Part shown: positions 9,325 to 24,799 of the stretch, in pieces
How the letters are laid out: every line of letters begins with the position of its first letter
Position numbering within the stretch: the stretch's first letter is position 1
DNA from: an uncultured Gammaproteobacteria bacterium
Lineage (GTDB): Bacteria > Patescibacteriota > Microgenomatia > Levybacterales > UBA12049
Length of the DNA: 64,000 nucleotides
Assembly: GCA_964515545.1 (NCBI GenBank)
Contig: CAZERI010000003.1
Location: 21,224 to 85,223 of the forward strand
Direction: 5' to 3'
Translations under genes and position numbers: made by a program
Notes under the pieces: model-generated
Database searches by the model: none
Seen by the model: only the letters and a program-made list of their open reading frames with translations
What the model was told of the DNA's origin: nothing

Positions 9325-10473
9325 ATGCCCCAACGCCGAAAAAAACCATTACAAAGGTTACTACTTCTTATTTTGGGAGTGATTGTACTGGGAGTCAGTA
9401 TTAAGATACTTTTGGCTATTATTAATTATGCTCCTGTTGCTTATCAGGTAGCCTTTAATAAGAATATTGAGCTTAAAAAGACCCAAGACCAACGAGTCAA
9501 TATCCTCCTTTTAGGTATTGGAGGAGGAAGCCATGAGGGTCCCAACCTCACTGACACGATTATCTTTGCCAGTATAGATCCAAAAAATAAAAAAGTTACG
9601 ATGGTTACACTTCCGCGCGATCTATGGGTACCTGATCTCCAGGCTAAGATTAACTATGCCTACGCTTCGGGGGAGGCAGAGAAAAAGAAGAAGGGTCTTC
9701 TTCTTGCTAAAGCAGTAGTAGGAAAGATCCTCGGACAAAAGATAGATTATGGTTTTCGAATTGATTTTAATGGGTTTATAAAGGCCGTAGATAGAATGGG
9801 AGGTTTGGATATTGACGTAGAGCGATCATTTGATGACTATGCATATCCTTTAAGTGGGAAAGAAGATGAGTTATGTGGGGTCTCTGAAGAATCTGTTGCC
9901 AGTATGTCTGCTCAGATTGCTTCAGGTAGTGCAACAGAATTTGATCTTTTCCCTTGCCGTTATGAACATCTTCATTTTGATAAAGGGATACAGCATATGG
10001 ATGGAGATACGGCGCTCAAATATGTAAGATCACGTCATGCTCTCGGTCCTGAAGGTTCTGATTTTGCTCGATCTCAGCGACAGGAACGGGTTATCAATGC
10101 CTTTAAAGATAAAGTGTTCTCAGCTGGAACCTTACTTAATCCAATAACACTCGTAAGTCTTTATGACACTTTTCAAGCGAGTATAGATACCGACATCCAA
10201 AAAAATGAATATGATGATTTTGTAAAGCTTGCCCAAAAGATGAAGGGATCAACGACTAAAAATTATGTAATTGATACAGGAAATGAGAGTGGCGATCGCC
10301 CAGATCTTCTTATTAATCCTCCGTTATCGCCTGATCGATATGGTGGAGCGTGGGTATTAGTACCTAAAGCAGGCCCTAGTAATTATGGAAAAATCCAAGC
10401 ATATGTTAAATGTCTGGTGGAAAATATCGGTTGTCCAATCACCCCAACCCCCTCCAAGCCTATCAGCAAATAA
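9325..10473 (+). CDS. LytR-CpsA-Psr (LCP) family glycopolymer-to-peptidoglycan ligase
   Basis: N-terminal TM anchor, then the LCP core ILLLGIGGG...DTIIFASIDP...TMVTLPRDLWV. Confidence 0.75.
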   Translation: MPQRRKKPLQRLLLLILGVIVLGVSIKILLAIINYAPVAYQVAFNKNIELKKTQDQRVNILLLGIGGGSHEGPNLTDTIIFASIDPKNKKVTMVTLPRDLWVPDLQAKINYAYASGEAEKKKKGLLLAKAVVGKILGQKIDYGFRIDFNGFIKAVDRMGGLDIDVERSFDDYAYPLSGKEDELCGVSEESVASMSAQIASGSATEFDLFPCRYEHLHFDKGIQHMDGDTALKYVRSRHALGPEGSDFARSQRQERVINAFKDKVFSAGTLLNPITLVSLYDTFQASIDTDIQKNEYDDFVKLAQKMKGSTTKNYVIDTGNESGDRPDLLINPPLSPDRYGGAWVLVPKAGPSNYGKIQAYVKCLVENIGCPITPTPSKPISK

Positions 10474-12738
10474 TCAAAATAGTTGATAAATTCTAGTGGT
10501 GCCATCTTCGAAGACAACTTTGCCCAGTGTTTGGAATTTCTCTTCATCAATATTGTACTTCTCCCTTTCAAGTGTCCCAATAAAGATATACTTAACATTA
10601 TATTTTTGGAGAAGAGATTTAGTCTTATTAAGATCTTTTGACTCATAAAGAGTCTTCACCTCATCTATTCTAGGGGCAGGGATATCGTACGTTCCTCGCC
10701 ACAGCCATTCGTGGACTGTCCAGCCAAGAACTGTAGGAAGGCCAGTATTACTTGAAACTCTTGCATAATCAGTATAGGAATCTCCCTGTGCTTCAAGAAT
10801 TACAGGCTGACCAACAACGTTCTTATTGAGCCATGCAATAGCCTTAGCATCACTTGGATATTTCTCCTTCAGGTACTTTGTTCCATCTAGCCCGTGATAG
10901 GTCTTTAAATCTCCATAATAAGACATAATCGCGAAGTAAGGGTAGGTAAAGACAGTAGTAAGTAGACAGAGTGTAATAAAGAAAAAGAAGATATAGAGTA
11001 TCCTTGTGAGCCAAGTTTTTTTCATTTTAAGAGCCTGTGAAATACGGCTAATGGTATAGCCCGTTGCCAGAGATAACATAATAAAGGATTGAAAGACCAG
11101 CTTAAACATCGTATTTGCTCGATAATGATCAGGATAAATATCTTTAGCGTATATAAATTCTGGAATAATAATAAGGAGGGTGGCTATAAGGATGAGCATG
11201 ATAACAAATACATCAGATCTTGCTAGCTGTTTAATTTTAAAAAAAGTTATTCCTAGAAGGAGAATGAAGAAATAGAAAAACCCATACAGAGTTACGAGCT
11301 GCCACCAGGGAGACTGCTGACAATGCTTTGGTTCAAAAAGAAAAGGACCAATATGTCCAATGCTAGTTAAAAAAGATGGAGCACATAAAACTCCAATTCC
11401 AGACACAAAAGGCTTAAAGAAAAATGATAGCGGTAAAGAGAAAAAGAATAGCCCTGCTCCAAGTACTATGCTTGGGATTATAAGTCCCATACCGAAATTA
11501 AGCAGTTTTTGGACAATAGGAAGTTTTGCTGGCGATATTTTTCCCCAATTAAGGTATGCAATAAGAAGGAGTGCTAATAAATAATAAATAAGTCCATCCC
11601 ACGCATTTGTCATATACATAACTGCGAGAAGAAGACTTAAAATCAGTATTTGAGGAAATGATAATGGAAGTTCGCGTATAATGAGTTGATAATAAGCAGC
11701 AAGGCCTTTTTTCTTTTTATGAATCTCTTTTTTATGTATTAGTCTTTTATACCCAAGAAAAAGAGAGTAAATAAAAGCAATAGTGAGAAGGACAAAGGGA
11801 ATATCCGTTACATGTCCATGAAGATCTGAAACTGTCCATGAGTAAATAGGAAATTCATGGATCGTATGATAGATAAACCTAGTTGCATTAGGATACCAAT
11901 AGGAATTGGGAAATGTGTGAGGTGAGAACACTAACTGCCAGAATGGAACTGGGTGCTCATTCTCATAAGGGCGAAACAGGGTATACAAAACATGCAGATT
12001 TCCAGCAAATGTTACCAATAGTCCTGAAAGGATTCCAACAATAATTATTCTTAAAAATCCAACCTTTTCAGCTACTTTATGATAGAGGTTAATTCCTATT
12101 GAGAATGAACTTACAAAAGTAAGGCCAGCAATCGTTGCGATCATTACATTAAAGGTGTAATTAGACTGGAGAAGTGATAGCTTAGTTAAGACTGCTGTAA
12201 TCAAGTGTCCAAAATAATAGTAGTTAATTGAAAATGGAGTAAACCACATATCTTTAGGAGGGAAATACGTGCTTCTTAGGATTGAATTGACAAAACCATA
12301 ATCCATAAATTTTTCAAGTCCATTAATATCTGGCGCGAAAGCACGCACATAGGAAAAAAAAGCCAAGATGACAATAAAAAGGAATTCTTCAATGATAATC
12401 CACTTGCTAAGGTATCTACCATCGTGGAGGAATGGTTGCCAGAAACTGGTTCTCTTACCTATAAAAATGAATACAACGGAATAAATTAAAAGCAAAAAAA
12501 TAAGACTTAAAAAAGCGAATGGGAGTAGATGGATAATTCCTACCACGAGCATGAGGTAGGAGAGGAGCAGTATCCCGATACTTTTACTAAAAATATATCC
12601 TCTATCAATAAAATGCGGGAAGAGGTAGTAGCTAAGCGGAGTAAAGATAATTCCGATAATAAATAGAGTAAGCCACCATTGGAAGCCCACAAGTAAATCA
12701 GCAGACATATTATGCAAGCATATCAGATAACTGGACAA
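10474..12738 (-). CDS. large polytopic membrane protein with YYY motif (DUF2298/Chlor_Arch_YYY-like), putative GT-C glycosyltransferase
   Basis: 754 aa with more than 12 TM helices. FTPFSINYYYFGH motif. C-terminal soluble domain of about 150 aa. Last gene of the nine-gene operon. Confidence 0.4.
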   Translation of the reverse strand: MSSYLICLHNMSADLLVGFQWWLTLFIIGIIFTPLSYYLFPHFIDRGYIFSKSIGILLLSYLMLVVGIIHLLPFAFLSLIFLLLIYSVVFIFIGKRTSFWQPFLHDGRYLSKWIIIEEFLFIVILAFFSYVRAFAPDINGLEKFMDYGFVNSILRSTYFPPKDMWFTPFSINYYYFGHLITAVLTKLSLLQSNYTFNVMIATIAGLTFVSSFSIGINLYHKVAEKVGFLRIIIVGILSGLLVTFAGNLHVLYTLFRPYENEHPVPFWQLVFSPHTFPNSYWYPNATRFIYHTIHEFPIYSWTVSDLHGHVTDIPFVLLTIAFIYSLFLGYKRLIHKKEIHKKKKGLAAYYQLIIRELPLSFPQILILSLLLAVMYMTNAWDGLIYYLLALLLIAYLNWGKISPAKLPIVQKLLNFGMGLIIPSIVLGAGLFFFSLPLSFFFKPFVSGIGVLCAPSFLTSIGHIGPFLFEPKHCQQSPWWQLVTLYGFFYFFILLLGITFFKIKQLARSDVFVIMLILIATLLIIIPEFIYAKDIYPDHYRANTMFKLVFQSFIMLSLATGYTISRISQALKMKKTWLTRILYIFFFFITLCLLTTVFTYPYFAIMSYYGDLKTYHGLDGTKYLKEKYPSDAKAIAWLNKNVVGQPVILEAQGDSYTDYARVSSNTGLPTVLGWTVHEWLWRGTYDIPAPRIDEVKTLYESKDLNKTKSLLQKYNVKYIFIGTLEREKYNIDEEKFQTLGKVVFEDGTTRIYQLF

Positions 12739-13261
12739 TTTGAGTTATTCTTTCTGGAAGATGAGTTGTCGAAAGCGTGGGATGCAGCCAGAAAAGCTTT
12801 GTTTTTTTATTTTCCCTTGCGACATATTTGAGAAGGTGTATATCATCATCGACATATATATCAAGTGAAAGTTCTTTGAGTGTCTGGTTTTTAAAAGTGT
12901 GGGGTTGAAGGTTATTGAAATTGAAATACATAGCGTCAAAAATCAGATCAAGCCCTAAATGGTTCATCAGAGACAGTGTCTGTTTTTGTAAAAATCCAAA
13001 TCTGCTTGATATTAAATAAAGTTCATATTTTTGTTTTGATAAGGATTTAAGAAATTTTATATTAGGAACAATAGGAGGACGAAGATAGGATGCATGTGAA
13101 AGTTGACGGATAAACTGTTCAGGACGGGACGGCATTCGGTAAAGAAGTGTACCATTAGCTTTCTTCCTGTACAGATGGTCAATGAGGCCATCCGGGACAA
13201 GTGGTGGATAATCAATAAATACTTTGTCTAAATCAAAACCGATCCGTGTCATAAACATCAA
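12710..13261 (-). CDS. HAD-superfamily-like hydrolase (putative sugar-phosphate phosphatase); tentative
   Basis: N-terminal IGFDLDKV resembles HAD motif I (DxDxV/T). 4-nt overlap with the upstream epimerase. Confidence 0.3.
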   Translation of the reverse strand: MMFMTRIGFDLDKVFIDYPPLVPDGLIDHLYRKKANGTLLYRMPSRPEQFIRQLSHASYLRPPIVPNIKFLKSLSKQKYELYLISSRFGFLQKQTLSLMNHLGLDLIFDAMYFNFNNLQPHTFKNQTLKELSLDIYVDDDIHLLKYVARENKKTKLFWLHPTLSTTHLPERITQIVQLSDMLA

Positions 13262-14337
13262 ATTTTAGATAGTAGATTGAGTAGTCGAAAATTCCAACTT
13301 ACTCGGTGTGTATTGCCTGTTTTAGTTTGGATTTTGTTCCTATTTTTCTTGTACCATAAATAGCTTTCAAGCAAAAGATCCTTATTAGATTTTTTTGGAT
13401 GCCAGTCAAGTAACTTTTCAGCTTTTTCCGTTGAGACATATGAAGACACAGGCATTGTTTTATAATGCCAAGCAGCCAGAGGTGAAAGCCGACATACTTC
13501 TAAAATTCTTAGAAGAAGTTGAGCTGGTAAAACAGGTAATCCAGTAATTTTAGATCTCGACTTTTCAGATCTGATAATAAATTGTAGATCTTTTCTCCAT
13601 GTTTGGAAATCTTTAGCCCCAATATTGAAAATTTCATTAGTAACCTTATTTATCAAGGCTTTATAGACTGCATCAACAACATCACTCACTGCTAAAAGTT
13701 GATATTTATTTTTTCCATTTCCTAAGATAAAGACGCGATGGCCTGAATAGATCGCCTCAAACCATAAAGAGAATACGCCTAGTCTTTCTGGCCCAAGAAA
13801 CGTTTTGGGACGGATAATATTGATAGCAAGACCTTTCTTCATGAATTCTTTACAGAGTTCTTCTGCTTTTCTTTTAGATTTTCCATAGTAGCCGATTGGA
13901 TCCAGAGGGCTCTCTTCGGTTTCAGGAAGATGTTTTGGAACACCATACAGTGCTGTAGTTGATATAAAGACTACCCGTTCTATGGTGTGTTCATGTGCTG
14001 CTGTAAGAATATTTTTTGTACCATCAACATTTGTACTGAAGATTTTTTTCTTAGTTCTTTGAATCGGGAGAGCTGCTGCTGCATGTACAATGTGAGTTAC
14101 CCCTTTGAGCGATCTTGCCACAACTTTTTTATTTCTAATATCCCCTTGAATTACACTCACTTTATTAATAAGATCTTTAGCATCGAGAGGGGCTATATCA
14201 AGAAGTACTACTTCCCAATCTTCTTTTATGAACTTTCTTGCTAAGTGTACTCCGAGAAAACCAGTTCCTCCGGTAATAAGAACTTTTTTTGACATGGTGT
14301 CTATTCTACTATTGTTTTTCTTTAAATGACAAGACAA
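13258..14337 (-). CDS. NAD-dependent sugar epimerase/dehydratase (extended SDR)
   Basis: VLITGGTGFLG glycine-rich NAD-binding motif. Catalytic YxxxK (YGKSK). Probable true start at the internal Met (MSKKVLITGG), about 14 codons downstream. Confidence 0.8.
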   Translation of the reverse strand: MSCHLKKNNSRIDTMSKKVLITGGTGFLGVHLARKFIKEDWEVVLLDIAPLDAKDLINKVSVIQGDIRNKKVVARSLKGVTHIVHAAAALPIQRTKKKIFSTNVDGTKNILTAAHEHTIERVVFISTTALYGVPKHLPETEESPLDPIGYYGKSKRKAEELCKEFMKKGLAINIIRPKTFLGPERLGVFSLWFEAIYSGHRVFILGNGKNKYQLLAVSDVVDAVYKALINKVTNEIFNIGAKDFQTWRKDLQFIIRSEKSRSKITGLPVLPAQLLLRILEVCRLSPLAAWHYKTMPVSSYVSTEKAEKLLDWHPKKSNKDLLLESYLWYKKNRNKIQTKTGNTHRVSWNFRLLNLLSKI

Positions 14338-14349
14338 ATAGAGTTTTTC

Positions 14350-16026
14350 TTACTTAGCTAGGAGGATAGCCCGTATCTTTTCAGGTGAATAGTGTGATGT
14401 ATTCTTAAATATAAATGTCTTCGGGTGGTCATAGACCTGAAATGTCTCTTCGCTGCTGTCATCATTGAGACTAAAGCCAAAAAGTTGTGGGTATGATGAG
14501 AATTCAGCAACTTTTTGGTAGCCTAATTTTTCTGAGAAAAGCAGTTCATAGTAGCGTTTTGTCAGAGGATATCTTTCAGGAAGATGCATAAGCGTTCCAT
14601 ATAAGCGTCTTGAGTTAATCGTTAGATAATTTGCCTGAGAAAGGTAATCAGCGTAATAACTTACTTTTGCATCACTGTCTTGATCATAGATTGCTAGTGA
14701 GAGTGTTTTATAGTTGTCTGGGGCTCCTTCAGGAAGCGGTATAGGCTGGCCGTCATCCCAATGCTCAGATAAGATAAAACTATTCTGAGGGATATGGGAA
14801 TAAATCCATTGAGAGGTTGCGATTCGAGTTTGTTCATGGGTATAAATTGAGAGAAATGCAGTAGCATAGATTCCAGAAGCAAGAATGAAGAGTAGGATAA
14901 GCACACGGCCTAAACGGGAATACTTTTTGGCAATAAGATAAAGAGCATTAGCTCCGCAAATGATAATAAAAGGGAAAATCGGGATCATATACCGATTAAA
15001 TTTGGTATACCATGAGCCTACATAGAAGAAGTACAGCAGGGGAAATGAAATGAAAATAATAAATATCCAATGTTTTTTACGAGTCTCTTGATATGTTGTA
15101 ATAACCGTCCCAGCTATTGCAGTAATAGCAAACATACCGAGTTGCCAAAACATATTTTTTAGTTGAAAAAGGTAAGCTGGGGTATGAAGGAACTGGAGTG
15201 TATATACAACAGGGTTAGTACCAAGCACTACACTATTCTCATAGTGCATTGATTCCATAAATTTAGAGAAATTTAGAAAAGTGTAGGGTGAAAATAAACA
15301 GAATGTCAAAAATCCGCAGATACAAATGAGAAAGAAATAACTGATGCTTTTTTTTATTGATAGTTTCTTTTTAATAAAAAGGATAGATAACGCCAGAAAT
15401 GGAGCCACCATAAATGATATGCCGGTTGTTTTGGTAGCAACAGCAATTCCTACGCCAATACCTATGAGTAAAGATTTTTTAAAGGAAGGATGTTCATAGA
15501 AAATGATAGCTAAACAAGTGATAAGTGTAATTAAAAAGGTGAGGAGATTTTCTGTCGTTGAGAAATGAGCGGTTTGAATAGATGAGACTGTTAAAGTGTA
15601 GATAATAGATGCCAAGAACCCAGTGGACTTATTAAAGATTTTTGAGGATAAGTAATAAAGCGGAATAATAGTCAATGTTGAGAAAAAGGCTGAATAAGAA
15701 CGGCCTATGATATTAATCCATCCCCAATCATGAGCTATTGTAGGATTATTAAAAATTACTGCTAAAATATCTGCTGTAATCTTATAGAGATAGATCAAGA
15801 ATCCACCATAAGCGTAGAATTTGGGATCCATTTGAGAGAACAATTGAATTTGACTTACAGCATTTGCAATATTTCTCTCGTCGGGATGAAAAAAATGTCC
15901 GAGGTCCCAATTGAGATTAAAAAATCTGAAAAATGCTGCAATAAGAATAATAATAAGAAGAATAACTTTTGTTTTTTTATCAAAAAGATGAGAGGAGTGT
16001 ACCATAGAGTTTTTATGATGATACAA
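14350..16026 (-). CDS. GT-C fold glycosyltransferase, family 39/83-like (PMT/ArnT-type)
   Basis: Polytopic protein with an acidic HPDE motif in the first extracytoplasmic loop. Size and topology are typical of PMT_2-type transferases. Confidence 0.45.
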   Translation of the reverse strand: MYHHKNSMVHSSHLFDKKTKVILLIIILIAAFFRFFNLNWDLGHFFHPDERNIANAVSQIQLFSQMDPKFYAYGGFLIYLYKITADILAVIFNNPTIAHDWGWINIIGRSYSAFFSTLTIIPLYYLSSKIFNKSTGFLASIIYTLTVSSIQTAHFSTTENLLTFLITLITCLAIIFYEHPSFKKSLLIGIGVGIAVATKTTGISFMVAPFLALSILFIKKKLSIKKSISYFFLICICGFLTFCLFSPYTFLNFSKFMESMHYENSVVLGTNPVVYTLQFLHTPAYLFQLKNMFWQLGMFAITAIAGTVITTYQETRKKHWIFIIFISFPLLYFFYVGSWYTKFNRYMIPIFPFIIICGANALYLIAKKYSRLGRVLILLFILASGIYATAFLSIYTHEQTRIATSQWIYSHIPQNSFILSEHWDDGQPIPLPEGAPDNYKTLSLAIYDQDSDAKVSYYADYLSQANYLTINSRRLYGTLMHLPERYPLTKRYYELLFSEKLGYQKVAEFSSYPQLFGFSLNDDSSEETFQVYDHPKTFIFKNTSHYSPEKIRAILLAK

Positions 16027-17290
16027 GAGAAGCTATTTTTTGTCCTAGCTCAACAGCATAATTAGTTCCTCTATCCCAAGGATAAACTTGTTCAATGTTG
16101 GCTAGATATACATGATCCAGAGGAGTGGTAAAAGGAGGAATGAGACGAGAATAATTAGTAGGTACGATAGGCTGAGCGAATGGCGCCCTGAAGACATCAT
16201 AATTAATCACATGTGTTTTATAGTGTGGGTTTATTTTTAAGAGGACCTCATCATATTTCTTAAGTAAGTCTTCTTTCGACATAGAAAATTCTTTACTGGT
16301 AGGTTCGGGATAATTGCCAACGTAGAGAAGGTGTTCATTATTGTAATGTGTTTTATCCATTAAATTAGTATGCTCAACAACTACCATAACCGGAGAATCT
16401 TTTTCACAAATACTGAGCCAATATGTCGTATCAGGCATAAATTGTTCTTTCAAACGAATTACCATATTAGTTGCCCCAAGACCTCTTAGCCTCACCATTT
16501 TTTCTCTATAACTCTGGGGTAATTGGGGAGTCAAATTAAGGAAAAGATATGTGGGTAAGGTTACGATTACTTTATCAAAGCTCAAATCTTTTTTCTTTTC
16601 TCCCTTTTTGATAGTGACTGTAACTACCTCTTCATCTTTAATCGCTATAGTTTCAGTAGAATAAAGAATTGTCCCCTTCTTTTTTTCAACCACTTCAGCT
16701 AGATGTTGAGCAAAGGAGAGGAATCCGCCGTCGGGATAGGCAAGAGAAGGAGTACGTTTATTGATCCTAGTCCAAAACCATACAAGTGAAATTTCATCGG
16801 CATATTTCCCCATTTTATTACGAAGTTGCGGTTCCCAAAGCATTGAGAAAGCTTTCTTTCCCATGGTTTTGGTTAATACGCTAACTGCATTCAGTTTTTC
16901 CAGTGGCTTCCAGAAAGGATCGAATTTTAGGAAAGCAAGGACAGCACTCATCCGAAGTTTATCTATGAATGGCAGAAGCGGGAATTTCAAAATTGCTAGA
17001 GGAGAATCAAGTTCGTAGAGATGATTCTTAATAAAGACTGAAGTTTTAGGGCGTTTGATAATAACTTTATGATTAATTTCCTCGGCTAGCGTGAGAACAA
17101 AATTATCACTTGTGAACCAATGATGATAATGCTTCTCAAGCGTCCAGTCCCACCCCTCCTCTTGGTATCCTATCGCAAGACCTCCCGGTAGATTATCTTT
17201 TTCGATAACTGTTACTTCATGGCCAGCCTTTTGTAATTCATGCGCTGCAGCAAGGCCGGTAAATCCGGCTCCAATTATGCCAATTTTCAT
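16013..17290 (-). CDS. FAD-dependent oxidoreductase (amine-oxidase/UDP-galactopyranose-mutase-like fold)
   Basis: N-terminal dinucleotide-binding motif KIGIIGAGFTGLAAA...EVTVIEKDNLPGGLA. Confidence 0.65.
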   Translation of the reverse strand: MKIGIIGAGFTGLAAAHELQKAGHEVTVIEKDNLPGGLAIGYQEEGWDWTLEKHYHHWFTSDNFVLTLAEEINHKVIIKRPKTSVFIKNHLYELDSPLAILKFPLLPFIDKLRMSAVLAFLKFDPFWKPLEKLNAVSVLTKTMGKKAFSMLWEPQLRNKMGKYADEISLVWFWTRINKRTPSLAYPDGGFLSFAQHLAEVVEKKKGTILYSTETIAIKDEEVVTVTIKKGEKKKDLSFDKVIVTLPTYLFLNLTPQLPQSYREKMVRLRGLGATNMVIRLKEQFMPDTTYWLSICEKDSPVMVVVEHTNLMDKTHYNNEHLLYVGNYPEPTSKEFSMSKEDLLKKYDEVLLKINPHYKTHVINYDVFRAPFAQPIVPTNYSRLIPPFTTPLDHVYLANIEQVYPWDRGTNYAVELGQKIASLVSS

Positions 17291-18678
17291 AATGTTCCCC
17301 GAGCAATTAAGAGTAAGAGTGCTCCCATTCCAATTGCGAGAGTTCCTAGTATACCTGAAAGAACGGTAATGGAGCTACCAGGAGATGTATTAATTGGTTG
17401 AGGTGGCTGTGTCAGGATATCTGAAGGGACAATAACAGGTGTGGCTGTTGGAGAAGCCGTAGGAGCCGGCGTAAACGTGGGGCTAGGTGTAGGAGTTATG
17501 GTTATTTCAGGTAAGGGTGTTGCTGTCGGCTGCACGGGAGATACAGATGGCTCCGTGAACTGACTTCCTTCTGCAAAAACAGTGAAGTTACGTGTGATAG
17601 TTTGGAGAATGCCTTGGCTATTCTTGGTCTTAATAGTTATAGTATGCTCTCCTGGTTCAAGTTTGGTATCAGGACGATAACTCCAGGAGCCATTTTTATT
17701 GGAGGTGACTGTGGTCATGATAGGCTCTCCTGAGTGAATTTCGATCTGGACTTCAGTATTTGGGAGAGCGGTTCCCTCAAACTGCGGTTGGGGGTCATGA
17801 AGCTCTTCATTCCTATCAGGACTGGCAATTGCGGGCTCTTTCGGTCCAGCTTCAGTGGCTGAGAATGATGGGAAAGAGGAAGTATCTGCCGAATTTGAAG
17901 CGATTGGGACAGGTGAAATCTGATTTGGAGTAGAGGATGTAAAATCGTATGAGTTGTTAAGTGTTATTAGCGGAACAGGATTTATTTGACTCGCCAGGAC
18001 TGAGACTGTAGCTTTCCCCTTTGGATTTTCAATAAGCAATTTAATAAGAGAAGTAGGAGAGAAAGAGACATAAGAGGAAAAATCATTCGTTCGTAATGCA
18101 TTGAGAGGCATAACAAATGTCCCATCAGCTTTAGTCAGTGTGGAGAGTGTCTGAGCGCCATCTGTTACTAAGAGAACAATAGTAGTATTGTCATGGCTGC
18201 CATCTGCATTTGCTACCGTTCCAACAATAGGAGTCTGACGGGATGGATTTTGGGTAAGGGTGTTCAGTGTTTTAACACTAAATGGTTTGTCCTTATCTAG
18301 GAAGGTTCTATTCGAAGAAAGAATCGTGTAGTAATAGGTCGTGTTTGGTGATAAATTTTTGACTGTTATATGATGGGTAAGATATGGCTGAGGCGTACCC
18401 GACTGTTGATCCCGATCGTCAAGTGCAACCTTACTTCCCTTGGGCGTCGTATCATAGGTGAGGGTTCCTAGAACACTCTCTTGTGTAACATAGGAAAGAG
18501 TAAATGAAGTATCTGTAAGATTAGTAACACGTATCTCCTCAGGAGTATATGTAGGTGAAGCTTTTGTAATAAAGAATACTGTGTGATTGACTGCATAATT
18601 GATAGCAAAAAAACCGGCAATCAACAAAATAATGCCAAATAAAGTAGGAATTCTTTTATGTAACAGCGAGTTTTGCAT
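17287..18678 (-). CDS. surface protein with N- and C-terminal TM anchors, FN3-like, CarbopepD_reg-like and bacterial Ig-like domains, and a Thr/Pro-rich linker
   Basis: N-terminal TM. IRVTNLTDTSFTLSY is FN3-like. GTVANADGS...DGTFVMP is a prealbumin-like fold. GTALPNTEVQIEIHSGE...NGSWSY is a BIg-like domain. PTATPLPEITITPTPSPTFTPAPTASPTATP linker. C-terminal hydrophobic helix. Confidence 0.55.
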   Translation of the reverse strand: MQNSLLHKRIPTLFGIILLIAGFFAINYAVNHTVFFITKASPTYTPEEIRVTNLTDTSFTLSYVTQESVLGTLTYDTTPKGSKVALDDRDQQSGTPQPYLTHHITVKNLSPNTTYYYTILSSNRTFLDKDKPFSVKTLNTLTQNPSRQTPIVGTVANADGSHDNTTIVLLVTDGAQTLSTLTKADGTFVMPLNALRTNDFSSYVSFSPTSLIKLLIENPKGKATVSVLASQINPVPLITLNNSYDFTSSTPNQISPVPIASNSADTSSFPSFSATEAGPKEPAIASPDRNEELHDPQPQFEGTALPNTEVQIEIHSGEPIMTTVTSNKNGSWSYRPDTKLEPGEHTITIKTKNSQGILQTITRNFTVFAEGSQFTEPSVSPVQPTATPLPEITITPTPSPTFTPAPTASPTATPVIVPSDILTQPPQPINTSPGSSITVLSGILGTLAIGMGALLLLIARGTL

Positions 18679-18679
18679 A

Positions 18680-19009
18680 TTAGAGTAGTCCTCCTTCTCC
18701 TGAACCCGTTGCTTCTGGTGTCTCAGTAATTTCAGGAGTTGGAGTTACCTTAAGCGTACCAGATTCAGATCCTTCATCAGTAGGCACACTTTCAATAGAG
18801 AATATCGGTTCAATAGCAGTTCTCTTTTTTAAACTTGAAAGGACTCCTGTTGGAAAAGTAGGAGAGATGGATTCAATCGCTTGTGTTTGGGTTGAAGAAA
18901 TAGTTGACGTAACAGATTTATTATAGACACTAAAAATGACCCAGAGAACAACTAGGATCGTAGAAGGTACAAGAATATAAAGCAAGTTTTTTTGTTGTTC
19001 AGGTTTCAT
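18680..19009 (-). CDS. small bitopic membrane protein with Thr/Pro/Glu-rich tail
   Basis: One TM helix (LLYILVPSTILVVLWVIF), then a low-complexity acidic T/P-rich tail. 4-nt overlap with the upstream gene. Confidence 0.4.
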   Translation of the reverse strand: MKPEQQKNLLYILVPSTILVVLWVIFSVYNKSVTSTISSTQTQAIESISPTFPTGVLSSLKKRTAIEPIFSIESVPTDEGSESGTLKVTPTPEITETPEATGSGEGGLL

Positions 19010-19632
19010 GGTCGGTAATAGGCTGTAGCTCTAATGTTTAGTTGGTAAATAATGCCTTCTTGCGTTTTTTGTCGAGATGTTCCTACCCCATCAAGCGTTA
19101 TAATTCGATCGATTCCTACCAGCTTTTTAGTAAATGTTTCAAAATCTTCTTGATTTCCCTGAAAGGTTGCAGCTATCCCAATTGGGGTGAGGACACTTGC
19201 AGTTTTTTTCGCGGTAGCAATTTCAACATCACTAATATTAAGCTGTAAAACAATAAGACGTGAGTTAGCAGCCAAAGTTCGAATTTTTCCTGAGAGTGCA
19301 CTAGTACTGGCAGCTTTAGGGATAGCTGCATCAAGGATTTTCAGTTGTGGGGAGAGAGAAATATATTGATCTTCAAGCTGTGACATATTAGTTATTTTAG
19401 TTTGAAGAGAATCTGCCAAAAATTTATCATCTGCTAATGTCTTTTTAAGCTGAGAAATGGTACCTAAGGTAGGAGCGATAGCAAAAAAACCAAACAAGCA
19501 AATTGCCATAAGTGTCAAGATAACCGTCGCATACGATTGAACTTTCTCTTGTCTGAAGCTAGGTAATGACTTAATATAAGCAAGGTATTTCTCTTTAGGG
19601 AAATTGTGGAGAATACTCGTGTTAATTTTCAT
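19006..19632 (-). CDS. PilO-like bitopic protein (short cytoplasmic N-terminus, TM, coiled coil, alpha/beta periplasmic domain); tentative
   Basis: Architecture only: TM at residues ~40-58, then a predicted coiled coil and a ~100-aa domain. Confidence 0.3.
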   Translation of the reverse strand: MKINTSILHNFPKEKYLAYIKSLPSFRQEKVQSYATVILTLMAICLFGFFAIAPTLGTISQLKKTLADDKFLADSLQTKITNMSQLEDQYISLSPQLKILDAAIPKAASTSALSGKIRTLAANSRLIVLQLNISDVEIATAKKTASVLTPIGIAATFQGNQEDFETFTKKLVGIDRIITLDGVGTSRQKTQEGIIYQLNIRATAYYRP

Positions 19633-20255
19633 TGTGCTACCTCCCCGGACACTGGTGTTGGCGCAAGCCCTTTGACTGATGATGGCAAGGGGATTAAGTT
19701 ACATGAGACCTCGGCTTCAAGTTCTGCACTTGAGATCCTATCTTCAATACGATCGATACTGATATCTTTGATATCTTTTCTCTTCTCTAGATCACTGATA
19801 AAGTTCTTTAAATTATCAAGTGAACCTGTAGTAAATTCGATATGAAGGAGGGTTGGACTTATATTTAAAAGGGTAATTGTTATGTTATTTTTTTCTGCTA
19901 ATGCCTGTATATCGCTTAACTGTGTAGGCATGACAAGTACATTCTCATTAAGATTACTTGCCTGGGTAAGAGTATCTTGTATTTGCCTAAAAAGTTTTTC
20001 GTGATCAGAAACGGCAACAACTATTTGCTGGCGCTGCTTAATAAGATCATTGAGGTCTACAATTTGGCGATCCAAGTTAAATCTATAAAGAAAAGCGCCT
20101 AGTGCTATTGTTTCAGTTAGAATAACCAGGAATCTCCCTCCTGTTATGGCCCAATGGATAAAAACGTCAAGCGAAGGCGTCCCTTTCTTTTTAGCTAAAT
20201 TAATAGTTAGACCTTTTCTGGTGTCCATGGCAGGTAAGCAAATCCTCTGCAACAC
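19629..20255 (-). CDS. PilN-like bitopic protein; tentative
   Basis: N-terminal LTINLAKKK resembles the PilN INLLP motif. Single TM, coiled coil and C-terminal domain. First gene of the nine-gene operon. Confidence 0.3.
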   Translation of the reverse strand: MLQRICLPAMDTRKGLTINLAKKKGTPSLDVFIHWAITGGRFLVILTETIALGAFLYRFNLDRQIVDLNDLIKQRQQIVVAVSDHEKLFRQIQDTLTQASNLNENVLVMPTQLSDIQALAEKNNITITLLNISPTLLHIEFTTGSLDNLKNFISDLEKRKDIKDISIDRIEDRISSAELEAEVSCNLIPLPSSVKGLAPTPVSGEVAQ

Positions 20256-20402: not shown

Positions 20403-22508
20403 ATGGCAGATACTAAAAGACAAGTTCCACTAGATAAGATTCGTAATATAGGCATTATTGCCCATATTGATGCGGGCAAAACTACTACTACTGAGCGTAT
20501 CCTTTTCTATACTGGCCGTACCTATAAGATCGGTGATATTGATGAGGGTAACACTCAGATGGATTGGATGGAGCAGGAAAAAGAGCGCGGAATTACTATC
20601 GTCTCAGCTGCTACCACTACCTTTTGGAAAGATCATCGTATTAATATCATCGATACTCCGGGCCACGTTGACTTTACCGCTGAAGTAGAGCGCTCACTTC
20701 GTGTTCTTGACGGGGGTATTACTGTACTTGATGCAGAAGAGGGCGTTCAGTCTCAGTCAGAGACTGTCTGGCGTCAAGCAGACAAGTACAAAGTTCCCCG
20801 TATCTGTTTTGTTAACAAGATGGATAAGCTAGGAGCTGATTTTCTAGCAACTGTTAAAAGTATTGAAGACAGACTTGGAGCAAATCCAGCTATCATGGTA
20901 CTTCCAATTGGCGCTGAAAATACTTATGTAGGTAACGTCGATCTTCTTACTCGCCAAACCATTACATGGGGTTCTGATGAGCTGGGTGCTAAATTTGAAC
21001 TTGGTACTGATATCCCTGAAGAGATGAAAGCTCAGGTTGAAGAGTACCGTAGTAAGCTGATCGAAAAAATTGCAGAGACGGATGATGCAATGCTTGAAAA
21101 ATATCTTAGTGGTGAGGAGCCAACTATAGAGGAACTTAAGAAAGCTCTTCGTGCAGCAGTTATCGCGTATAAATTAGTCCCTATTTATGCAGGTACATCA
21201 CTTCGTAATAAAGGCGTTCAGCCACTGCTTGATGCAGTTTTGGATTACCTTCCTTCCCCAGTTGATCTTAAAGAGGTAAAAGGTACTAATCCAAAAACTG
21301 GTGAAGAAGAGACAAGGGAGTTAGTCCCAGAAGCCCCTTTTTCAGGCCTTGCGTTTAAGATCCAGAATGATCCTCACGTAGGAAAACTTACGTATTTTAG
21401 AGTCTACTCAGGAAAAATCGAGTCTGGATCATATGTCTATAACAGTACTAAAGGTATTAAAGAACGTGTAGGTAGACTTCTGTTGATGCATGCAAATGAA
21501 AGAGAAGAAATAAAGGAAGGATATTCTGGAGAGATTGTAGCAATTGTTGGGCTTAAGGATACAGGAACTGGAGATACCCTCTGTGATGAGGCAAAGCCAA
21601 TTGTTCTTGAAAAAATATCATTCCCAGAGCCAGTTATCTCACTTGCTATTGAACCTCAGACGAAATCAGATCAGGAAAAGATGGGTTATGCAATTAAGAG
21701 GCTTACTGAAGAAGATCCAACCTTCTCAGTCAAGACTAATCATGAAACAGGCCAGACTATCATCTCAGGTATTGGTGAGTTGCAGCTTGAGGTTATGGTA
21801 GACCGCATGAAGCGGGAATTTAATGTCCAAGCAAATACCGGTGCGCCTCAGGTCGCGTACAAAGAGACTTTCCAATCTCAGGTATCAGCTGAAGGTAAGT
21901 ACATCAAACAGTCCGGAGGAAGAGGACAGTTCGGTCACTGCTGGCTTAGAATCGAGCCAAAAGAGCGTGGAGAAGGTAATGAATTTGTTAGTGAGATCAA
22001 AGGAGGAGCAATCCCTGCAGAGTTTGTTAAAGCTGTTGAAAAAGGAGTCTGGGAGACACTTGAAAATGGAGTATTACTCGGTTATCCAATTGTTGACGTC
22101 AAGGTTGCTTGCTATGACGGCTCATACCATGAGGTAGATTCTAGTGAGGTAGCCTTTAAGATTGCTGCTTCTCAAGCTATTCAAGCTGCTTCCAAAAAAG
22201 TCGAGATGGGACTATTAGAGCCTATTATGAAAGTTGAAGTCACAACTCCTTCTGAATTTATGGGAGATGTGATGGGAGATCTATCCAGTAAGCGTGGACA
22301 AATTATTGGTACTGAAGAGCGCTCCCGCGCAACTATCATTAATGCTCTTGTTCCACTAGCAGAGTTATCAGGTTACGCAACTCAAATTCGCAGTATGTCT
22401 CAAGGCCGTGCTTCTTATTACATGGAGCCAAGTCATTATGATATCGTCCCTCGTAATATCGTCGACCAGATGGTCGCCAAATCCACCTTTACCGGCCGCG
22501 TCGAATAA
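20403..22508 (+). CDS. fusA: translation elongation factor G
   Basis: [14 protein letters not shown]1 motif, [13 protein letters not shown]. Full-length (~700 aa) five-domain pattern. Confidence 0.95.
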
Positions 22509-23591: not shown

Positions 23592-24063
23592 AGGGTATAA
23601 ATTTTTTAGTCTTTTTCTGGTAGTCTTCATATCCCCTCTTGAAATAGTGTACTAAGAGTTTTTCTTCATAGGTAGCTTTCATGATTAAGTCACAAGTCAA
23701 AAGAATAGTAGATATAACCCGTAGTGTAGTAATATCGTTTAATAAAAGACCCAATGATACAAGGATCACCGCAAGATACATGGGGTGTCTTACAAACTCA
23801 AAAGGTCCATCAGTTACTAAGTTACTATCAGGCGCAACATCTGCAGTAATTTGAATTGCAGTAATTCGCATAGACCAGAGAGACCATAATCCCAGGCCGA
23901 TTCCCCCGAATTCGAGAATACTACTAAAAAGATTAGTTGGAATCACAGGTCCAGTTAAAAATAGATAAAGAAAGAGAAGACTTTGAGCAAAAACAAGGAG
24001 AAGGGATTTAGGATTACGTGACATGTCTCTAGTATGAATTATTTTTCTATAAGATTCAAGCAT
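23581..24063 (-). CDS. isoprenylcysteine carboxyl methyltransferase (ICMT)/phospholipid methyltransferase family membrane protein
   Basis: Four TM helices and the characteristic C-terminal RHPMYLA motif. Confidence 0.6.
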   Translation of the reverse strand: MLESYRKIIHTRDMSRNPKSLLLVFAQSLLFLYLFLTGPVIPTNLFSSILEFGGIGLGLWSLWSMRITAIQITADVAPDSNLVTDGPFEFVRHPMYLAVILVSLGLLLNDITTLRVISTILLTCDLIMKATYEEKLLVHYFKRGYEDYQKKTKKFIPFIY

Positions 24064-24104
24064 AAAGCTTGAATCTTATTGGTATATATTATATATAGGA
24101 GCAA

Positions 24105-24758: not shown

Positions 24759-24799
24759 CCCTAAACATCATTAGTCAGGACATCGTATAATAGTAGTCT

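What the first reader, a model, noticed from the sequence alone, without database searches (positions are those of the whole stretch)
10474..20255. Nine-gene overlapping operon linking PilN/PilO-like proteins, a Thr/Pro-rich anchored surface protein and GT-C/sugar-modifying enzymes: candidate protein O-glycosylation or surface-assembly system
Seen in the sequence: nine consecutive minus-strand ORFs are joined by 4-nt ATGA-type overlaps or gaps of at most 14 nt (junctions at 19629/19632, 19006/19009, 18679, 17287/17290, 16013/16026, 14338-14349, 13258/13261, 12710/12738). This makes them almost certainly one transcript. In order they encode two bitopic coiled-coil proteins with PilN/PilO-like architecture, a small T/P/E-rich bitopic protein, a doubly anchored FN3/Ig-like protein with a long PTxTP linker, an FAD oxidoreductase, a GT39/83-like GT-C transferase (HPDE loop), an NAD-dependent epimerase, a HAD-like phosphatase and a 754-aa YYY-motif membrane protein. 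Established knowledge: PMT-type GT-C enzymes O-mannosylate Thr/Pro-rich secreted proteins during translocation in Actinobacteria, and epimerase, HAD and flavoenzymes commonly supply the activated sugar. Inference: the operon encodes an acceptor protein, the enzymes that make and transfer its glycan, and a PilN/O-like membrane scaffold. That combination is not a described system. An LCP ligase (9325-10473) converges on its 3' end.
Basis: partly seen in the sequence, partly recalled or inferred. Interest (0 to 1): 0.78.

Follow-up and report, generated by a model that had tools for sequence, protein, structure and literature searches.

The report
Pilus-scaffold genes fused to glycosylation cassette
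In this tiny uncultured bacterium (Levyibacteriota), one tight nine-gene operon joins a four-gene PilN/PilO surface-protein block to a widespread five-gene membrane sugar-transfer cassette; the cassette also occurs without the block, so this is probably two joined modules, not a new dedicated machine.

Summary

Two corrections. O4 is not doubly anchored. It has a signal-peptide-like N-terminus and a sortase-type C-terminal sorting signal (LPXTG-like in 35/75 orthologs, "SPGSS" here). The flavoprotein O5 has a phytoene-desaturase/PPOX-like fold.

A survey of 166 related loci splits the operon into two modules. O1-O4 lie upstream of O5 in 78/78 Levyibacteriota-type loci and in a second deep clade. 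In 26 of 37 evaluable loci from other O5 lineages, O5 stands without O1-O4; there it often heads GT-C cassettes, some with a decaprenyl-phosphate phosphoribosyltransferase-like UbiA. O6, O7 and O8 are optional even within the phylum.

Best reading: a PilN/PilO envelope module is co-transcribed with a general glycosylation cassette that uses polyprenyl-phosphate-linked sugars. The Thr/Pro-rich stalks are plausible acceptors but unproven. No PilM, pilus ATPase, pilin or sortase was found in the window. Precedents exist (TfpW pilin arabinosylation; LcpA/GspA). Moderate interest.

The parts
19629..20228 (-). O1: PilN-like bitopic protein. Likely start is the ATG at 20228 (199 aa); the longest ORF runs to the GTG at 20255.
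   Evidence: No curated family hit for the window protein itself. The profile of 39 orthologs has PilN (3jc8) as its best PDB hit, E=9.5e-4. hhalign to the O2 family gives 70% probability, E=4e-5. The N-terminal 'SINL' motif is conserved (I9 and N10 >=90%, L11 invariant). Ortholog L128:5180-5776 passes Pfam PilN PF05137, E=1.7e-10, 41.2 bits against a cutoff of 22.8.
19006..19632 (-). O2: PilO-family bitopic protein.
   Evidence: Pfam PilO PF04350, E=2.9e-9, 37.6 bits against a cutoff of 22. Weak GspM match, E=2.4e-4. One hydrophobic segment at residues 31-49.
18680..19009 (-). O3: small bitopic protein with an N-terminal TM, a conserved PIxPxFD...LKxR motif and a Thr/Pro/Glu-rich tail. Function unknown.
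   Evidence: No family hit. Present in 69/72 Levyibacteriota loci, always within 20 nt of O4 or overlapping it.
17287..18678 (-). O4: secreted surface protein, probably wall-anchored. Order of parts: signal-peptide-like N-terminus, FN3-like domain, CarboxypepD_reg-like domain, Big_13 Ig-like domain, Thr/Pro/Ser stalk, C-terminal sorting signal ('TSPGSS' + hydrophobic segment + R).
   Evidence: Pfam Big_13 E=4.7e-10 and Pur_ac_phosph_N E=8.3e-9. Orthologs carry xPx[TSA]G (LPXTG-like) at the same position in 35/75 cases, 15 of them exact LPPTG. Ortholog L055 passes TIGR01167 LPXTG_anchor, 21.9 bits against a cutoff of 15.9. Median T+P+S fraction of the stalk is 0.54.
16013..17290 (-). O5: cytoplasmic FAD flavoprotein of the PRK07233 family, with a phytoene-desaturase/PPOX-like fold. 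It leads the GT-C cassette.
   Evidence: Amino_oxidase E=2.4e-27; NCBIfam PRK07233 E=7.6e-114. AF2 pLDDT 83.7; Foldseek hits are PPOX, 3ka7 and rice phytoene desaturase (TM 0.81); UGM is not in the top 50. Family fusions to LPG_synthase_TM and SAM-methyltransferases. A GT-C-like gene follows O5 in nearly all Levyibacteriota-type loci and in many loci of other lineages.
14350..16005 (-). O6: GT-C glycosyltransferase (PMT_2 / ArnT-like) with an invariant PDE in the HPDE loop. Optional member of the cassette.
   Evidence: PMT_2 E=6.8e-11. Profile against PDB: ArnT 5ezm, E=8.7e-5. Invariant P41, D42, E43. Eight or more hydrophobic segments. Present in 26/47 Levyibacteriota loci, usually as two paralogs.
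13258..14295 (-). O7: NAD-dependent SDR epimerase/dehydratase/reductase. Optional member.
   Evidence: Epimerase PF01370 E=7.2e-44. Best NCBIfam matches (HpnA-like, GalE-like) all fall below their cutoffs. Present in 16/47 loci. Co-occurs with UbiA in L085, L094 and L096.
12710..13255 (-). O8: small HAD-superfamily-like phosphatase. Optional member, normally found next to a DUF2298-type gene.
   Evidence: No Pfam hit; NCBIfam HAD BT0820 only E=0.049. All four HAD motifs are conserved in 21 orthologs: D8 and D10 invariant, S83/S84, K122, D136-D138. No PDB sequence hit. Present in 23/47 loci.
10474..12708 (-). O9: DUF2298 / Chlor_Arch_YYY membrane protein, shown here to have a GT-C glycosyltransferase fold with an AglB-like C-terminal globular domain. 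Near-constant member.
9325..10473 (+). Convergent LCP (LytR-CpsA-Psr) glycopolymer transferase. Conserved neighbour of the cassette.
   Evidence: PF03816 E=4.1e-31; TIGR00350 E=1.8e-27. Found downstream of the cassette in Levyibacteriota, in the second deep clade and in L091.

Best explanation
The nine genes form one transcription unit built from two modules that are separable in evolution.

Module B (O5-O9, 10474-17290) is an extracytoplasmic glycosylation cassette that most likely uses polyprenyl-phosphate-linked sugars.
- The cytoplasmic enzymes are O5 (FAD, phytoene-desaturase/PPOX-like fold), O7 (SDR) and O8 (HAD-type phosphatase).
- I infer that they tailor a lipid-linked sugar donor. 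This would resemble the mycobacterial decaprenyl-phospho-arabinose route, where a phosphoribosyltransferase, a phosphatase, an FAD oxidase and an SDR reductase act in turn. Here the oxidase would have a different fold.
- The GT-C enzymes O6 (PMT_2/ArnT-like) and O9 (DUF2298, GT-C fold) transfer the sugar on the outer face of the membrane to envelope acceptors.
- The adjacent LCP enzyme may ligate a resulting polymer to the wall or to a protein.
- The GT-C/SDR/HAD content varies between species like a glycan-diversity island.

Module A (O1-O4, 17287-20228) is a PilN/PilO pair, a small bitopic protein and a secreted FN3/Ig protein with a sortase-type sorting signal.
- It is most likely the membrane alignment part of a type IV pilus-like envelope machine.
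- Its PilM, ATPases and pilins would be encoded elsewhere; the conserved N-terminal INL motif of O1 suggests that a PilM partner exists.

In Levyibacteriota and one other deep clade, A sits directly upstream of B and is co-expressed with it. The Thr/Pro-rich stalks of O4/O3, or pilins, are plausible acceptors, but B is not dedicated to A.

Shown here: operon structure, families and folds, and the distribution across loci. Inferred: the lipid-linked donor, the role of O5, the PilM partner and the acceptors.
For: - Operon anatomy.
- Families.
- PilN/PilO.
- O4 sorting signal.
- O9 GT-C fold.
- O6 is ArnT-like with an invariant PDE in loop 1.
- O8 HAD motifs.
- O5 fold is closest to enzymes with lipophilic or isoprenoid substrates, and the family is fused to an LPG_synthase_TM lipid-flippase-like domain.
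- A UbiA gene directly after O5 in L085, L094, L096 and L138 best matches decaprenyl-phosphate phosphoribosyltransferase (E=3e-53), and it co-occurs with O7 in L085, L094 and L096.
- Module split: O1 72/72, O2 71/72, O3 69/72 and O4 72/72 upstream of O5; O9 46/47, O6 26/47, O8 23/47 and O7 16/47 downstream.
- O1-O4 lie upstream of O5 in 78/78 Levyibacteriota-type loci, 1/10 loci of intermediate O5 clades and 10/27 loci of far clades.
- B occurs without A in L092, L093, L095 and L096; L091 and L094 also lack O1/O2 but have under 3 kb of upstream sequence.
- The O4/O5 junction is the loosest of the A-side junctions, and unrelated genes are inserted there in L128, L163 and L135.
- CPR pilM, pilN and pilO normally co-localise with pilB, pilC and pilT (PMC6744442, PMC12206443), whereas no PilM or pilus-ATPase family was seen among the window ORFs scanned and no prepilin or sortase motif in any ORF.
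Against: - No biochemical evidence exists for any step.
- The A-B adjacency survives changes of the upstream flank (EF-G, MurJ+LepA, or MurJ+purine genes) and is present in two O5 clades only about 40% identical. This could mean a real functional coupling that I am underrating.
- O5 persists where O7, O8 and UbiA are absent, so a strict DprE1-like role cannot be its general function.
- No UbiA gene is present in this 64-kb window.
- O5 stays next to O4 even in L023, which has no GT-C gene at the locus.
- I could not test whether module A ever occurs without module B. I also could not test whether these genomes hold PilM, PilB or PilC, or a second PilN/PilO set.
Confidence: 0.55

Rival explanations
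1. Integrated, dedicated surface-glycoprotein assembly system. O4 and O3 are the acceptors, O5-O9 make and transfer their glycan, and PilN/PilO have been co-opted as a membrane scaffold that holds acceptor and GT-C enzymes together. LCP and a sortase finish the anchoring.
For: - 4-nt O4/O5 overlap in the window and in 31/73 species.
- A-B adjacency in 78/78 Levyibacteriota-type loci and in a second deep clade, despite changes in the upstream flank.
- Thr/Pro/Ser-rich stalks.
- GT-C enzymes act outside the membrane.
- Precedent for LCP-dependent glycosylation of an LPXTG protein (PMC6381275).
- PilN/PilO homologs are known to be co-opted into other machines (titles and abstracts listed).
- PilM and the pilus ATPases are absent from the locus.
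Against: - The cassette occurs without O1-O4 in 26 of 37 evaluable loci outside the Levyibacteriota-type clade.
- O6, O7 and O8 are optional.
- Extra unrelated genes can sit between O4 and O5.
- The flanks are conserved as well, so adjacency may simply be inherited.
- O1 keeps the PilM-binding-type INL motif, which argues for an ordinary pilus role.
Confidence: 0.15
2. TfpW-like pilin glycosylation. O1/O2 are the genuine type IV pilus alignment proteins, and the cassette modifies pilins (encoded elsewhere) with a polyprenyl-phosphate-derived sugar. This would parallel Pseudomonas group IV pilins, which receive D-arabinofuranose from a GT-C enzyme fed by Rv3806c/DprE1/DprE2 homologs.
For: - A described precedent that couples pilus genes, a GT-C enzyme and the decaprenyl-phospho-arabinose pathway (bioRxiv 10.1101/2020.04.19.049825).
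- UbiA/DPPR-synthase-like genes in some cassettes.
- O9 resembles AftA/AftB/AftD.
- A GT-C+TPR protein with TfpW-like architecture lies in the same window at 3189-4787.
- Pili are near-universal in CPR.
Against: - No pilin gene lies next to any GT-C gene here, and there is no prepilin motif in the window.
- O5 is not a DprE1 homolog.
- The cassette is found in many contexts with no pilus gene.
Confidence: 0.12
3. Pure inherited synteny. The cassette builds or decorates a wall glycopolymer that LCP attaches to peptidoglycan, and the PilN/PilO/O3/O4 block has no functional relation to it beyond sharing a promoter in a compact genome.
For: - The whole region is a conserved cell-envelope super-locus: MurJ, Ddl, PIG-L, GH18, LCP, FemAB and further GT-C genes.
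- LCP is always adjacent to the cassette end.
- The cassette exists without module A.
- Overlapping genes of unrelated function are common in compact CPR genomes (my own knowledge).
Against: The adjacency is retained in 78/78 Levyibacteriota-type loci and in a second clade with about 40% O5 identity, while both the upstream flank and the internal cassette content vary. That is more stable than neutral synteny usually is.
Confidence: 0.18

Closest known systems
Type IV pilus alignment subcomplex PilM-PilN-PilO, as in Gram-positive and CPR pilus loci
   Same: O2 passes Pfam PilO. The O1 family passes Pfam PilN through an ortholog and has PilN as its best PDB hit. O1 is bitopic, with a conserved N-terminal INL motif like the PilM-binding INLLP of PilN. 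O1 and O2 are adjacent and their genes overlap.
   Different: No PilM, PilB, PilC or PilT family was seen among the window ORFs scanned, and no prepilin motif in any ORF. The labelled genes within about 10 kb in the related loci are envelope and housekeeping genes. In CPR these pilus genes normally co-localise (PMC6744442, PMC12206443). Here the pair is instead followed by a small bitopic protein and a sortase-type FN3/Ig surface protein.
Pseudomonas aeruginosa Pa5196/PA7 pilin arabinosylation (TfpW GT-C plus Rv3806c/Rv3807c/DprE1/DprE2 homologs)
   Same: It combines type IV pilus components with a GT-C transferase and a lipid-linked pentose pathway (phosphoribosyltransferase, phosphatase, FAD oxidase, SDR reductase). 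Some related cassettes carry a DPPR-synthase-like UbiA gene next to O5. The window also encodes a GT-C+TPR protein.
   Different: The flavoprotein here has the amine-oxidase/phytoene-desaturase fold, not the VAO-type DprE1 fold. UbiA is absent from this window. No pilin is adjacent. The phosphatase is HAD-like, not PAP2-type (the Rv3807c fold is my recollection, not checked here). The donor sugar is unknown.
Mycobacterial arabinogalactan/LAM assembly (DPA pathway, Emb/Aft GT-C arabinosyltransferases, LCP ligase)
   Different: No sequence-level membership in the Emb/Aft families. No galactan machinery. CPR have a different envelope. The O5 fold differs from DprE1.
Actinomyces oris GspA/LcpA/SrtA pathway (LCP-dependent glycosylation of a sortase-anchored protein)
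   Same: A protein with an LPXTG-type sorting signal is encoded near an LCP enzyme and glycan-synthesis genes.
   Different: The window's O4 has an SPGSS variant in place of LPXTG. No sortase motif was found in the window. GT-C enzymes and PilN/PilO are not part of the Actinomyces pathway as far as I know.
Actinobacterial/eukaryotic PMT (GT39) protein O-mannosylation
   Different: O6 matches PMT_2 and ArnT, not the PMT (PF02366) model, and no other domain family was reported for it. No polyprenyl-phosphate-mannose synthase was identified in the operon.

Membership tests
PilO (PF04350) | Score above Pfam's gathering threshold over most of the domain | tested here: met
   O2: 37.6 bits against a cutoff of 22, profile positions 16-141 of 145. 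Orthologs were also flagged PilO in precomputed hits.
PilN (PF05137) | Score above Pfam's gathering threshold | tested here: inconclusive
   The window O1 itself has no PilN hit at E<=0.1. Ortholog L128:5180-5776 passes at 41.2 bits against 22.8. The profile of 39 orthologs hits PilN 3jc8 as the best PDB match, E=9.5e-4.
PilN (PF05137) | Short cytoplasmic N-terminus with an INLLP-type PilM-binding motif, then one TM segment | tested here: met
   I9 and N10 >=90%, L11 invariant; followed by a conserved hydrophobic segment GRxLIIxTExVALxAF. PilM binding itself was not tested.
Type IV pilus machine | PilM, assembly ATPase PilB, platform PilC and prepilins encoded with PilN/PilO | tested here: not met
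   None seen among the window ORFs scanned against Pfam, and no prepilin motif in any window ORF. The labelled neighbours of O1 and O9 in the related loci are MurJ, EF-G, LepA, LCP, TIM, UvrD and FemAB. The rest of the genome was not available.
LPXTG sortase substrate (TIGR01167) | C-terminal LPXTG motif, hydrophobic segment, basic tail | tested here: inconclusive
   Window O4 has TSPGSS + hydrophobic segment + R, and does not pass TIGR01167. 35/75 orthologs have xPx[TSA]G (15 exact LPPTG), 41/75 have a basic tail, and ortholog L055 passes TIGR01167. No sortase motif in the window.
GT-C glycosyltransferase (O6, PMT_2 PF13231) | Family HMM above threshold, a multi-pass membrane protein, an acidic motif in the first external loop | tested here: met
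   43.1 bits against 26.1. ArnT 5ezm E=8.7e-5. Invariant P41, D42, E43. Eight or more hydrophobic segments.
GT39 protein O-mannosyltransferase (PMT) | PMT domain PF02366 (MIR and PMT_4TMC domains are further features of this family, from my own knowledge) | tested here: not met
   Only PMT_2 is reported for window O6. A weak PMT flag appears on one ortholog only.
GT-C glycosyltransferase (O9, DUF2298) | GT-C membrane fold | tested here: met
   [not shown]
GT-C glycosyltransferase (O9, DUF2298) | Glycosyl transfer from a polyprenyl-phosphate sugar | not testable with these tools
   Only conserved acidic residues can be shown (invariant D35 after the first TM; E132 and D136).
Decaprenyl-phospho-arabinose pathway | UbiA-family DPPR synthase (Rv3806c type) in the locus | tested here: not met
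   None in the window. Present directly after O5 in L085, L094, L096 and L138. L085 scores 180.8 bits against a cutoff of 207 for PRK12324.
Decaprenyl-phospho-arabinose pathway | DprE1: a VAO-type FAD oxidase | tested here: not met
   O5 has the Amino_oxidase / phytoene-desaturase / PPOX fold. It could be analogous to DprE1 but is not homologous.
HAD phosphatase superfamily (O8) | Motifs I-IV (DxD, S/T, K, DD) | tested here: met
   D8 and D10 invariant; S83/S84; K122; D136-D138. No curated HMM passes and there is no PDB sequence hit.
UDP-galactopyranose mutase (considered for O5) | GLF domain / UGM fold | tested here: not met
   No GLF Pfam hit. UGM matches only the N-terminal FAD-binding part and is absent from the top 50 structural hits.
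LCP glycopolymer transferase | LytR_cpsA_psr domain above threshold | tested here: met
   108.6 bits against 24.6; TIGR00350 96.5 against 62.3.

The most novel reading that the evidence does not exclude
In Levyibacteriota and a second deep Microgenomates-like clade, a PilN/PilO pair has been detached from the pilus motor. Together with O3 it scaffolds a trans-envelope assembly line. In that line a sortase-type FN3/Ig protein is glycosylated on its Thr/Pro stalk by DUF2298/PMT_2 GT-C enzymes. The donor is a polyprenyl-phospho-sugar oxidised by a flavoprotein that replaces DprE1 without being homologous to it. This would be a previously undescribed envelope-glycoprotein machine of CPR bacteria.
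Probability: 0.12. Interest if true: 0.8.

Novelty: new variant of a known kind. Interest (0 to 1): 0.48.

Why it matters
CPR/Patescibacteria envelopes are almost uncharacterised, yet they mediate the episymbiotic lifestyle of these organisms. Three things come out of this locus.

1. DUF2298/'YYY' proteins, which have had no assigned function, have a GT-C glycosyltransferase fold.
2. A flavoprotein-led GT-C cassette recurs widely (995 O5-family clusters at E<=1e-30), sometimes with a decaprenyl-phosphate phosphoribosyltransferase-like gene. This points to lipid-linked sugar chemistry of the mycobacterial type in CPR, with an FAD enzyme of a different fold.
3. An orphan PilN/PilO pair is stably fused to a sortase-type surface protein and to this cassette. 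That gives a concrete, testable link between pilus-type scaffolds and envelope glycosylation.

None of these is a new category of system, but each gives a definite experiment.

Tried and rejected
- **O5 as UDP-galactopyranose mutase.** I suspected this from a 'HxxF(T)xD'-like motif and from N-terminal PDB matches. The fold search rejected it: UGM is not in the top 50, and PPOX and phytoene desaturase come first.
- **O5 as a DprE1 homolog.** Rejected because the fold is different. Functional analogy remains possible.
- **O4 as 'doubly anchored'.** Rejected in favour of a signal peptide plus a sortase-type sorting signal.
- **O5 belonging with O1-O4.** I considered this because O5 is invariant next to O4 within the phylum. 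Out-of-phylum contexts rejected it.
- **Word-index homolog searches** with the O2 sequence and with the O5 and O9 profiles returned only same-phylum proteins among the hits listed. They were useless for leaving the phylum. The 50%-clustered library plus contig look-ups solved this.
- **Sequence-only searches** for O9 and O8 against the PDB found nothing. hhalign of O9 against O6 was only weakly suggestive (37% probability).
- **The promoter/terminator scan** was uninformative: 37 promoter-like sites against 34.5 expected, and no convincing internal terminator.
- **Literature on DUF2298** is essentially absent (2 incidental mentions). There are no papers linking DPPR synthase to Patescibacteria.
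- **Motif scans** for a sortase (TLxTC) or a prepilin leader in the window gave only one spurious match each, one inside the GT-C ORF O6 and one in a short overlapping ORF.

Full report
**1. Observation**

The window region 10474-20255 carries nine consecutive minus-strand ORFs, exactly as described.
- Junctions are 4-nt overlaps at O1/O2, O2/O3 and O4/O5, and a 1-nt gap at O3/O4.
- With the longest-ORF starts, the remaining junctions are short overlaps or gaps.
- Independent gene calls on contigs with identical proteins give more conservative starts: O1 199 aa, O6 551 aa, O7 345 aa, O8 180-182 aa, O9 744 aa. With these starts the gaps are 7, 54, about 0-5 and 1 nt. The unit remains compact, though one junction exceeds the stated 14 nt.
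- EF-G (20403-22508, +) is divergent upstream, and an LCP gene (9325-10473, +) ends exactly where O9 ends.
- A consensus promoter/terminator scan gave nothing above background inside the unit.

**2. Organism**

Species-representative genomes holding close relatives are titled Candidatus Levyibacteriota/Levybacteria, which belong to the Patescibacteria/CPR. Several MAG records of the same clade are titled 'uncultured Gammaproteobacteria', which looks like a labelling problem in those records.

**3. What each product is**

- **O2** is a PilO-family protein, above the Pfam gathering score.
- **O1** has no curated hit on its own, but several lines point to PilN:
  - Its orthologs share an N-terminal SINL motif, a conserved TM segment and a coiled-coil/alpha-beta C-terminal part.
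  - The ortholog profile's best PDB match is PilN (3jc8, E=9.5e-4).
  - It aligns profile-to-profile with the O2 family (70% probability, E=4e-5).
  - An ortholog from a distant clade passes Pfam PilN (E=1.7e-10).
- **O3** is a small bitopic protein with a conserved PIxPxFD...LKxR motif and no known family.
- **O4** has FN3-like, CarboxypepD_reg-like and Big_13 domains, a Thr/Pro/Ser stalk (median T+P+S fraction 0.54) and a C-terminal signal.
  - In 35 of 75 orthologs that signal reads xPx[TSA]G (15 exact LPPTG), followed by a hydrophobic segment and often a basic tail.
  - One ortholog passes the curated LPXTG_anchor model.
  - The window's clade has 'SPGSS' at that position.
  - O4 is therefore best described as a secreted, probably sortase-processed wall protein, not a doubly anchored membrane protein.
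- **O5** is a cytoplasmic FAD protein of NCBIfam PRK07233 (E=8e-114). Its AF2 model (pLDDT 84) is closest to protoporphyrinogen oxidase, an uncharacterised Methanosarcina oxidoreductase (3ka7) and plant phytoene desaturase (TM 0.81). UDP-galactopyranose mutase is not among the top 50.
- **O6** is a PMT_2 GT-C enzyme whose profile hits ArnT. It has an invariant Pro-Asp-Glu in the first loop. It is not a PF02366 PMT.
- **O7** is a generic extended SDR.
- **O8** has all four HAD motifs conserved but passes no curated model.
- **O9** (DUF2298/TIGR03662) had no detectable sequence relative in the PDB. Its AF2 model (pLDDT 80, pTM 0.85) matches only GT-C enzymes at high score.
  - The literature holds essentially nothing on DUF2298.

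**4. Is it one system? Neighbourhood survey within the phylum**

Exact and close homologs (down to 45% identity for O2) show the same nine genes, but they also show the same housekeeping flanks. That alone proves nothing.

I anchored on O5 and mapped all genes with phmmer/hmmsearch in 80 species-representative loci.
- O1, O2, O3 and O4 are present upstream of O5 in 72, 71, 69 and 72 of 72 evaluable loci.
- Downstream, O9 is present in 46/47 loci, but O6 in only 26/47 (usually as two paralogs), O8 in 23/47 and O7 in 16/47.
- The O5-to-LCP distance ranges from 23 nt (L023, no GT-C at all) to 9.7 kb.
- In the 'minimal' loci, O5 is followed by a 545-aa DUF2298-related protein and then by O9.
- The upstream flank changes between EF-G, MurJ+LepA and MurJ+purine genes, while O1-O5 stays intact.
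- Junctions within O1-O4 are always 20 nt or less. O4/O5 is looser: 31/73 overlap by 4 nt, but 25/73 have gaps of more than 20 nt.

**5. Leaving the phylum**

A profile search of the 50%-clustered library shows a large O5 family: 995 clusters at E<=1e-30. It includes fusions to SAM-methyltransferases and to an LPG_synthase_TM domain.

Contexts of 38-43%-identical homologs lack PilN/PilO/FN3 genes upstream:
- O5 - 542-aa DUF2298-like - PMT_2 - PMT - LCP (L091).
- TIM, then O5 - DUF2298-like - HAD-like - GT4 - methyltransferase (L092/L093).
- O5 - UbiA - PMT_2 ... SDR - PMT_2 - HAD-like - DUF2298 (L094).
- GroES/EL, then O5 - PMT_2 (L095).
- L091 and L094 have under 3 kb of upstream sequence, so absence there is less certain.

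The UbiA gene that follows O5 in the Levyibacteriota locus L085 best matches decaprenyl-phosphate phosphoribosyltransferase (E=3e-53, just under the cutoff).

A metagenome scan seeded with out-of-phylum O5 sequences added 80 loci. On a neighbour-joining tree of 166 O5 sequences:
- O1-O4 lie upstream of O5 in 78/78 Levyibacteriota-type loci.
- They also do so in a second, deeply separated clade: 10 of 27 'far' loci, arranged MurJ(-) | O1-O5 - GT-C ... O9 | LCP - UvrD - FemAB.
- They are absent in 26 evaluable loci of other O5 clades.
- In three loci of the second clade, 1.2-1.8 kb of unknown genes sit between O4 and O5.

**6. Synthesis**

The operon is a composite.

Module B (O5-O9) is a widely distributed cassette, variable in content, led by a flavoprotein and always containing GT-C-type membrane enzymes, usually next to LCP.
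- The fold of O5 (lipophilic/isoprenoid-substrate enzymes), its fusion to a lipid-flippase-like domain and the occasional DPPR-synthase-like UbiA all bear on the donor. So do the SDR, the HAD phosphatase and the dependence of GT-C enzymes on polyprenyl-phosphate donors (established knowledge).
- Together they make a lipid-linked sugar pathway the most economical reading. It would be analogous to, but not homologous with, the decaprenyl-phospho-arabinose route (for that pathway's parts).
- O5 persists where O7, O8 and UbiA are missing, so its general role must be broader than a DprE1-like oxidation.

Module A (O1-O4) is a PilN/PilO pair plus two lineage-specific envelope proteins.
- CPR PilM, PilN and PilO normally sit with PilB, PilC and PilT. 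No such family was seen among the window ORFs scanned, and no prepilin or sortase motif in any ORF.
- The conserved INL motif suggests O1 still binds a PilM encoded elsewhere.

The two modules are co-transcribed in this lineage, and their juxtaposition is old. However, the cassette clearly functions without module A elsewhere.

**7. Comparison with known systems**

The nearest described systems are:
- The PilMNO alignment complex.
- Pseudomonas TfpW pilin arabinosylation, which couples pili, a GT-C enzyme and a DPA pathway.
- Mycobacterial arabinan assembly with LCP ligation.
- Actinomyces LcpA-dependent glycosylation of the LPXTG protein GspA.
- PMT O-mannosylation.

The locus is not a member of any of the last four. 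It lacks DprE1-type and PF02366 domains, an adjacent pilin, a UbiA gene in the window, and a sortase motif in the window.

**8. Verdict**

Novelty lies in three points:
- The GT-C assignment of DUF2298.
- The flavoprotein-led cassette.
- The stable fusion of an orphan PilN/PilO/sortase-substrate block to that cassette.

This is a new variant of known kinds, of moderate interest.

Noticed in passing
window 3189-4787 (-) and 1801-3192 (-): A second envelope cluster lies next to FemAB (4791-5813). It contains a 532-aa protein with about 9 hydrophobic segments and C-terminal TPR repeats. That protein aligns to the O6 GT-C family (hhalign 88%, E=3e-6), so it is a GT-C+TPR architecture like Pseudomonas TfpW. 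It overlaps a further PMT_2 GT-C gene (463 aa).
   Followed up: partly
L083:5048-6742, L026:5510-7333, L046:5121-6797, L067:4554-6224 (all -): In about half of the Levyibacteriota species, and in the second deep clade, the gene divergent from O1 is MurJ (lipid II flippase family) instead of EF-G. It is followed by LepA or purine-synthesis genes. The O1 promoter region is therefore shared with a lipid-linked-precursor flippase in those species.
   Followed up: partly
P0148, P0281, P0275, P0214 (O5-family representatives): Members of the O5 family occur as fusions. Two carry a C-terminal SAM-methyltransferase. One carries an N-terminal LPG_synthase_TM domain. One has an unidentified 400-aa N-terminal region.
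   Followed up: partly
L128:8185-9920, L163:4493-6249, L135:7845-8990: In three loci of the second clade, one or two genes with no Pfam hit are inserted exactly at the O4/O5 boundary. Their function is unknown.
   Followed up: partly
L023:9971-12464: One Levyibacteriota species has O1-O5 followed directly (23 nt) by LCP, with no GT-C, SDR, HAD or DUF2298 gene at the locus.
   Followed up: no
window 19629-20228 (O1), protein residues about 31-50: The predicted membrane segment of the PilN-like protein contains a nearly invariant Glu (E39) and a conserved Thr, followed by an invariant Arg-Phe (within the consensus YRFxLDR) at its end. This is unusual for a simple anchor and may be an interaction or charge-sensing site.
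   Followed up: no
window 23581-25888: An ICMT/PEMT-family methyltransferase, a PIG-L-family deacetylase and a GH18 protein sit between Ddl and EF-Tu. They are syntenic with the operon across the phylum. These are further envelope or glycan-related genes of unknown role.
   Followed up: no
loci L012, L014, L015, L020 and others (record titles): Many MAG records that clearly belong to the same Levyibacteriota clade (identical synteny, 55-73% O5 identity) are titled 'uncultured Gammaproteobacteria bacterium'. One is titled Methylomirabilota, and an O9 homolog is titled Pacearchaeota. These are probably taxonomic mislabels in the public records.
   Followed up: no
window 47626-48552 (-): A class A-type beta-lactamase-family protein (Beta-lactamase2, E=2e-42) is encoded in this small CPR genome.
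   Followed up: no
[not shown]
   Followed up: no
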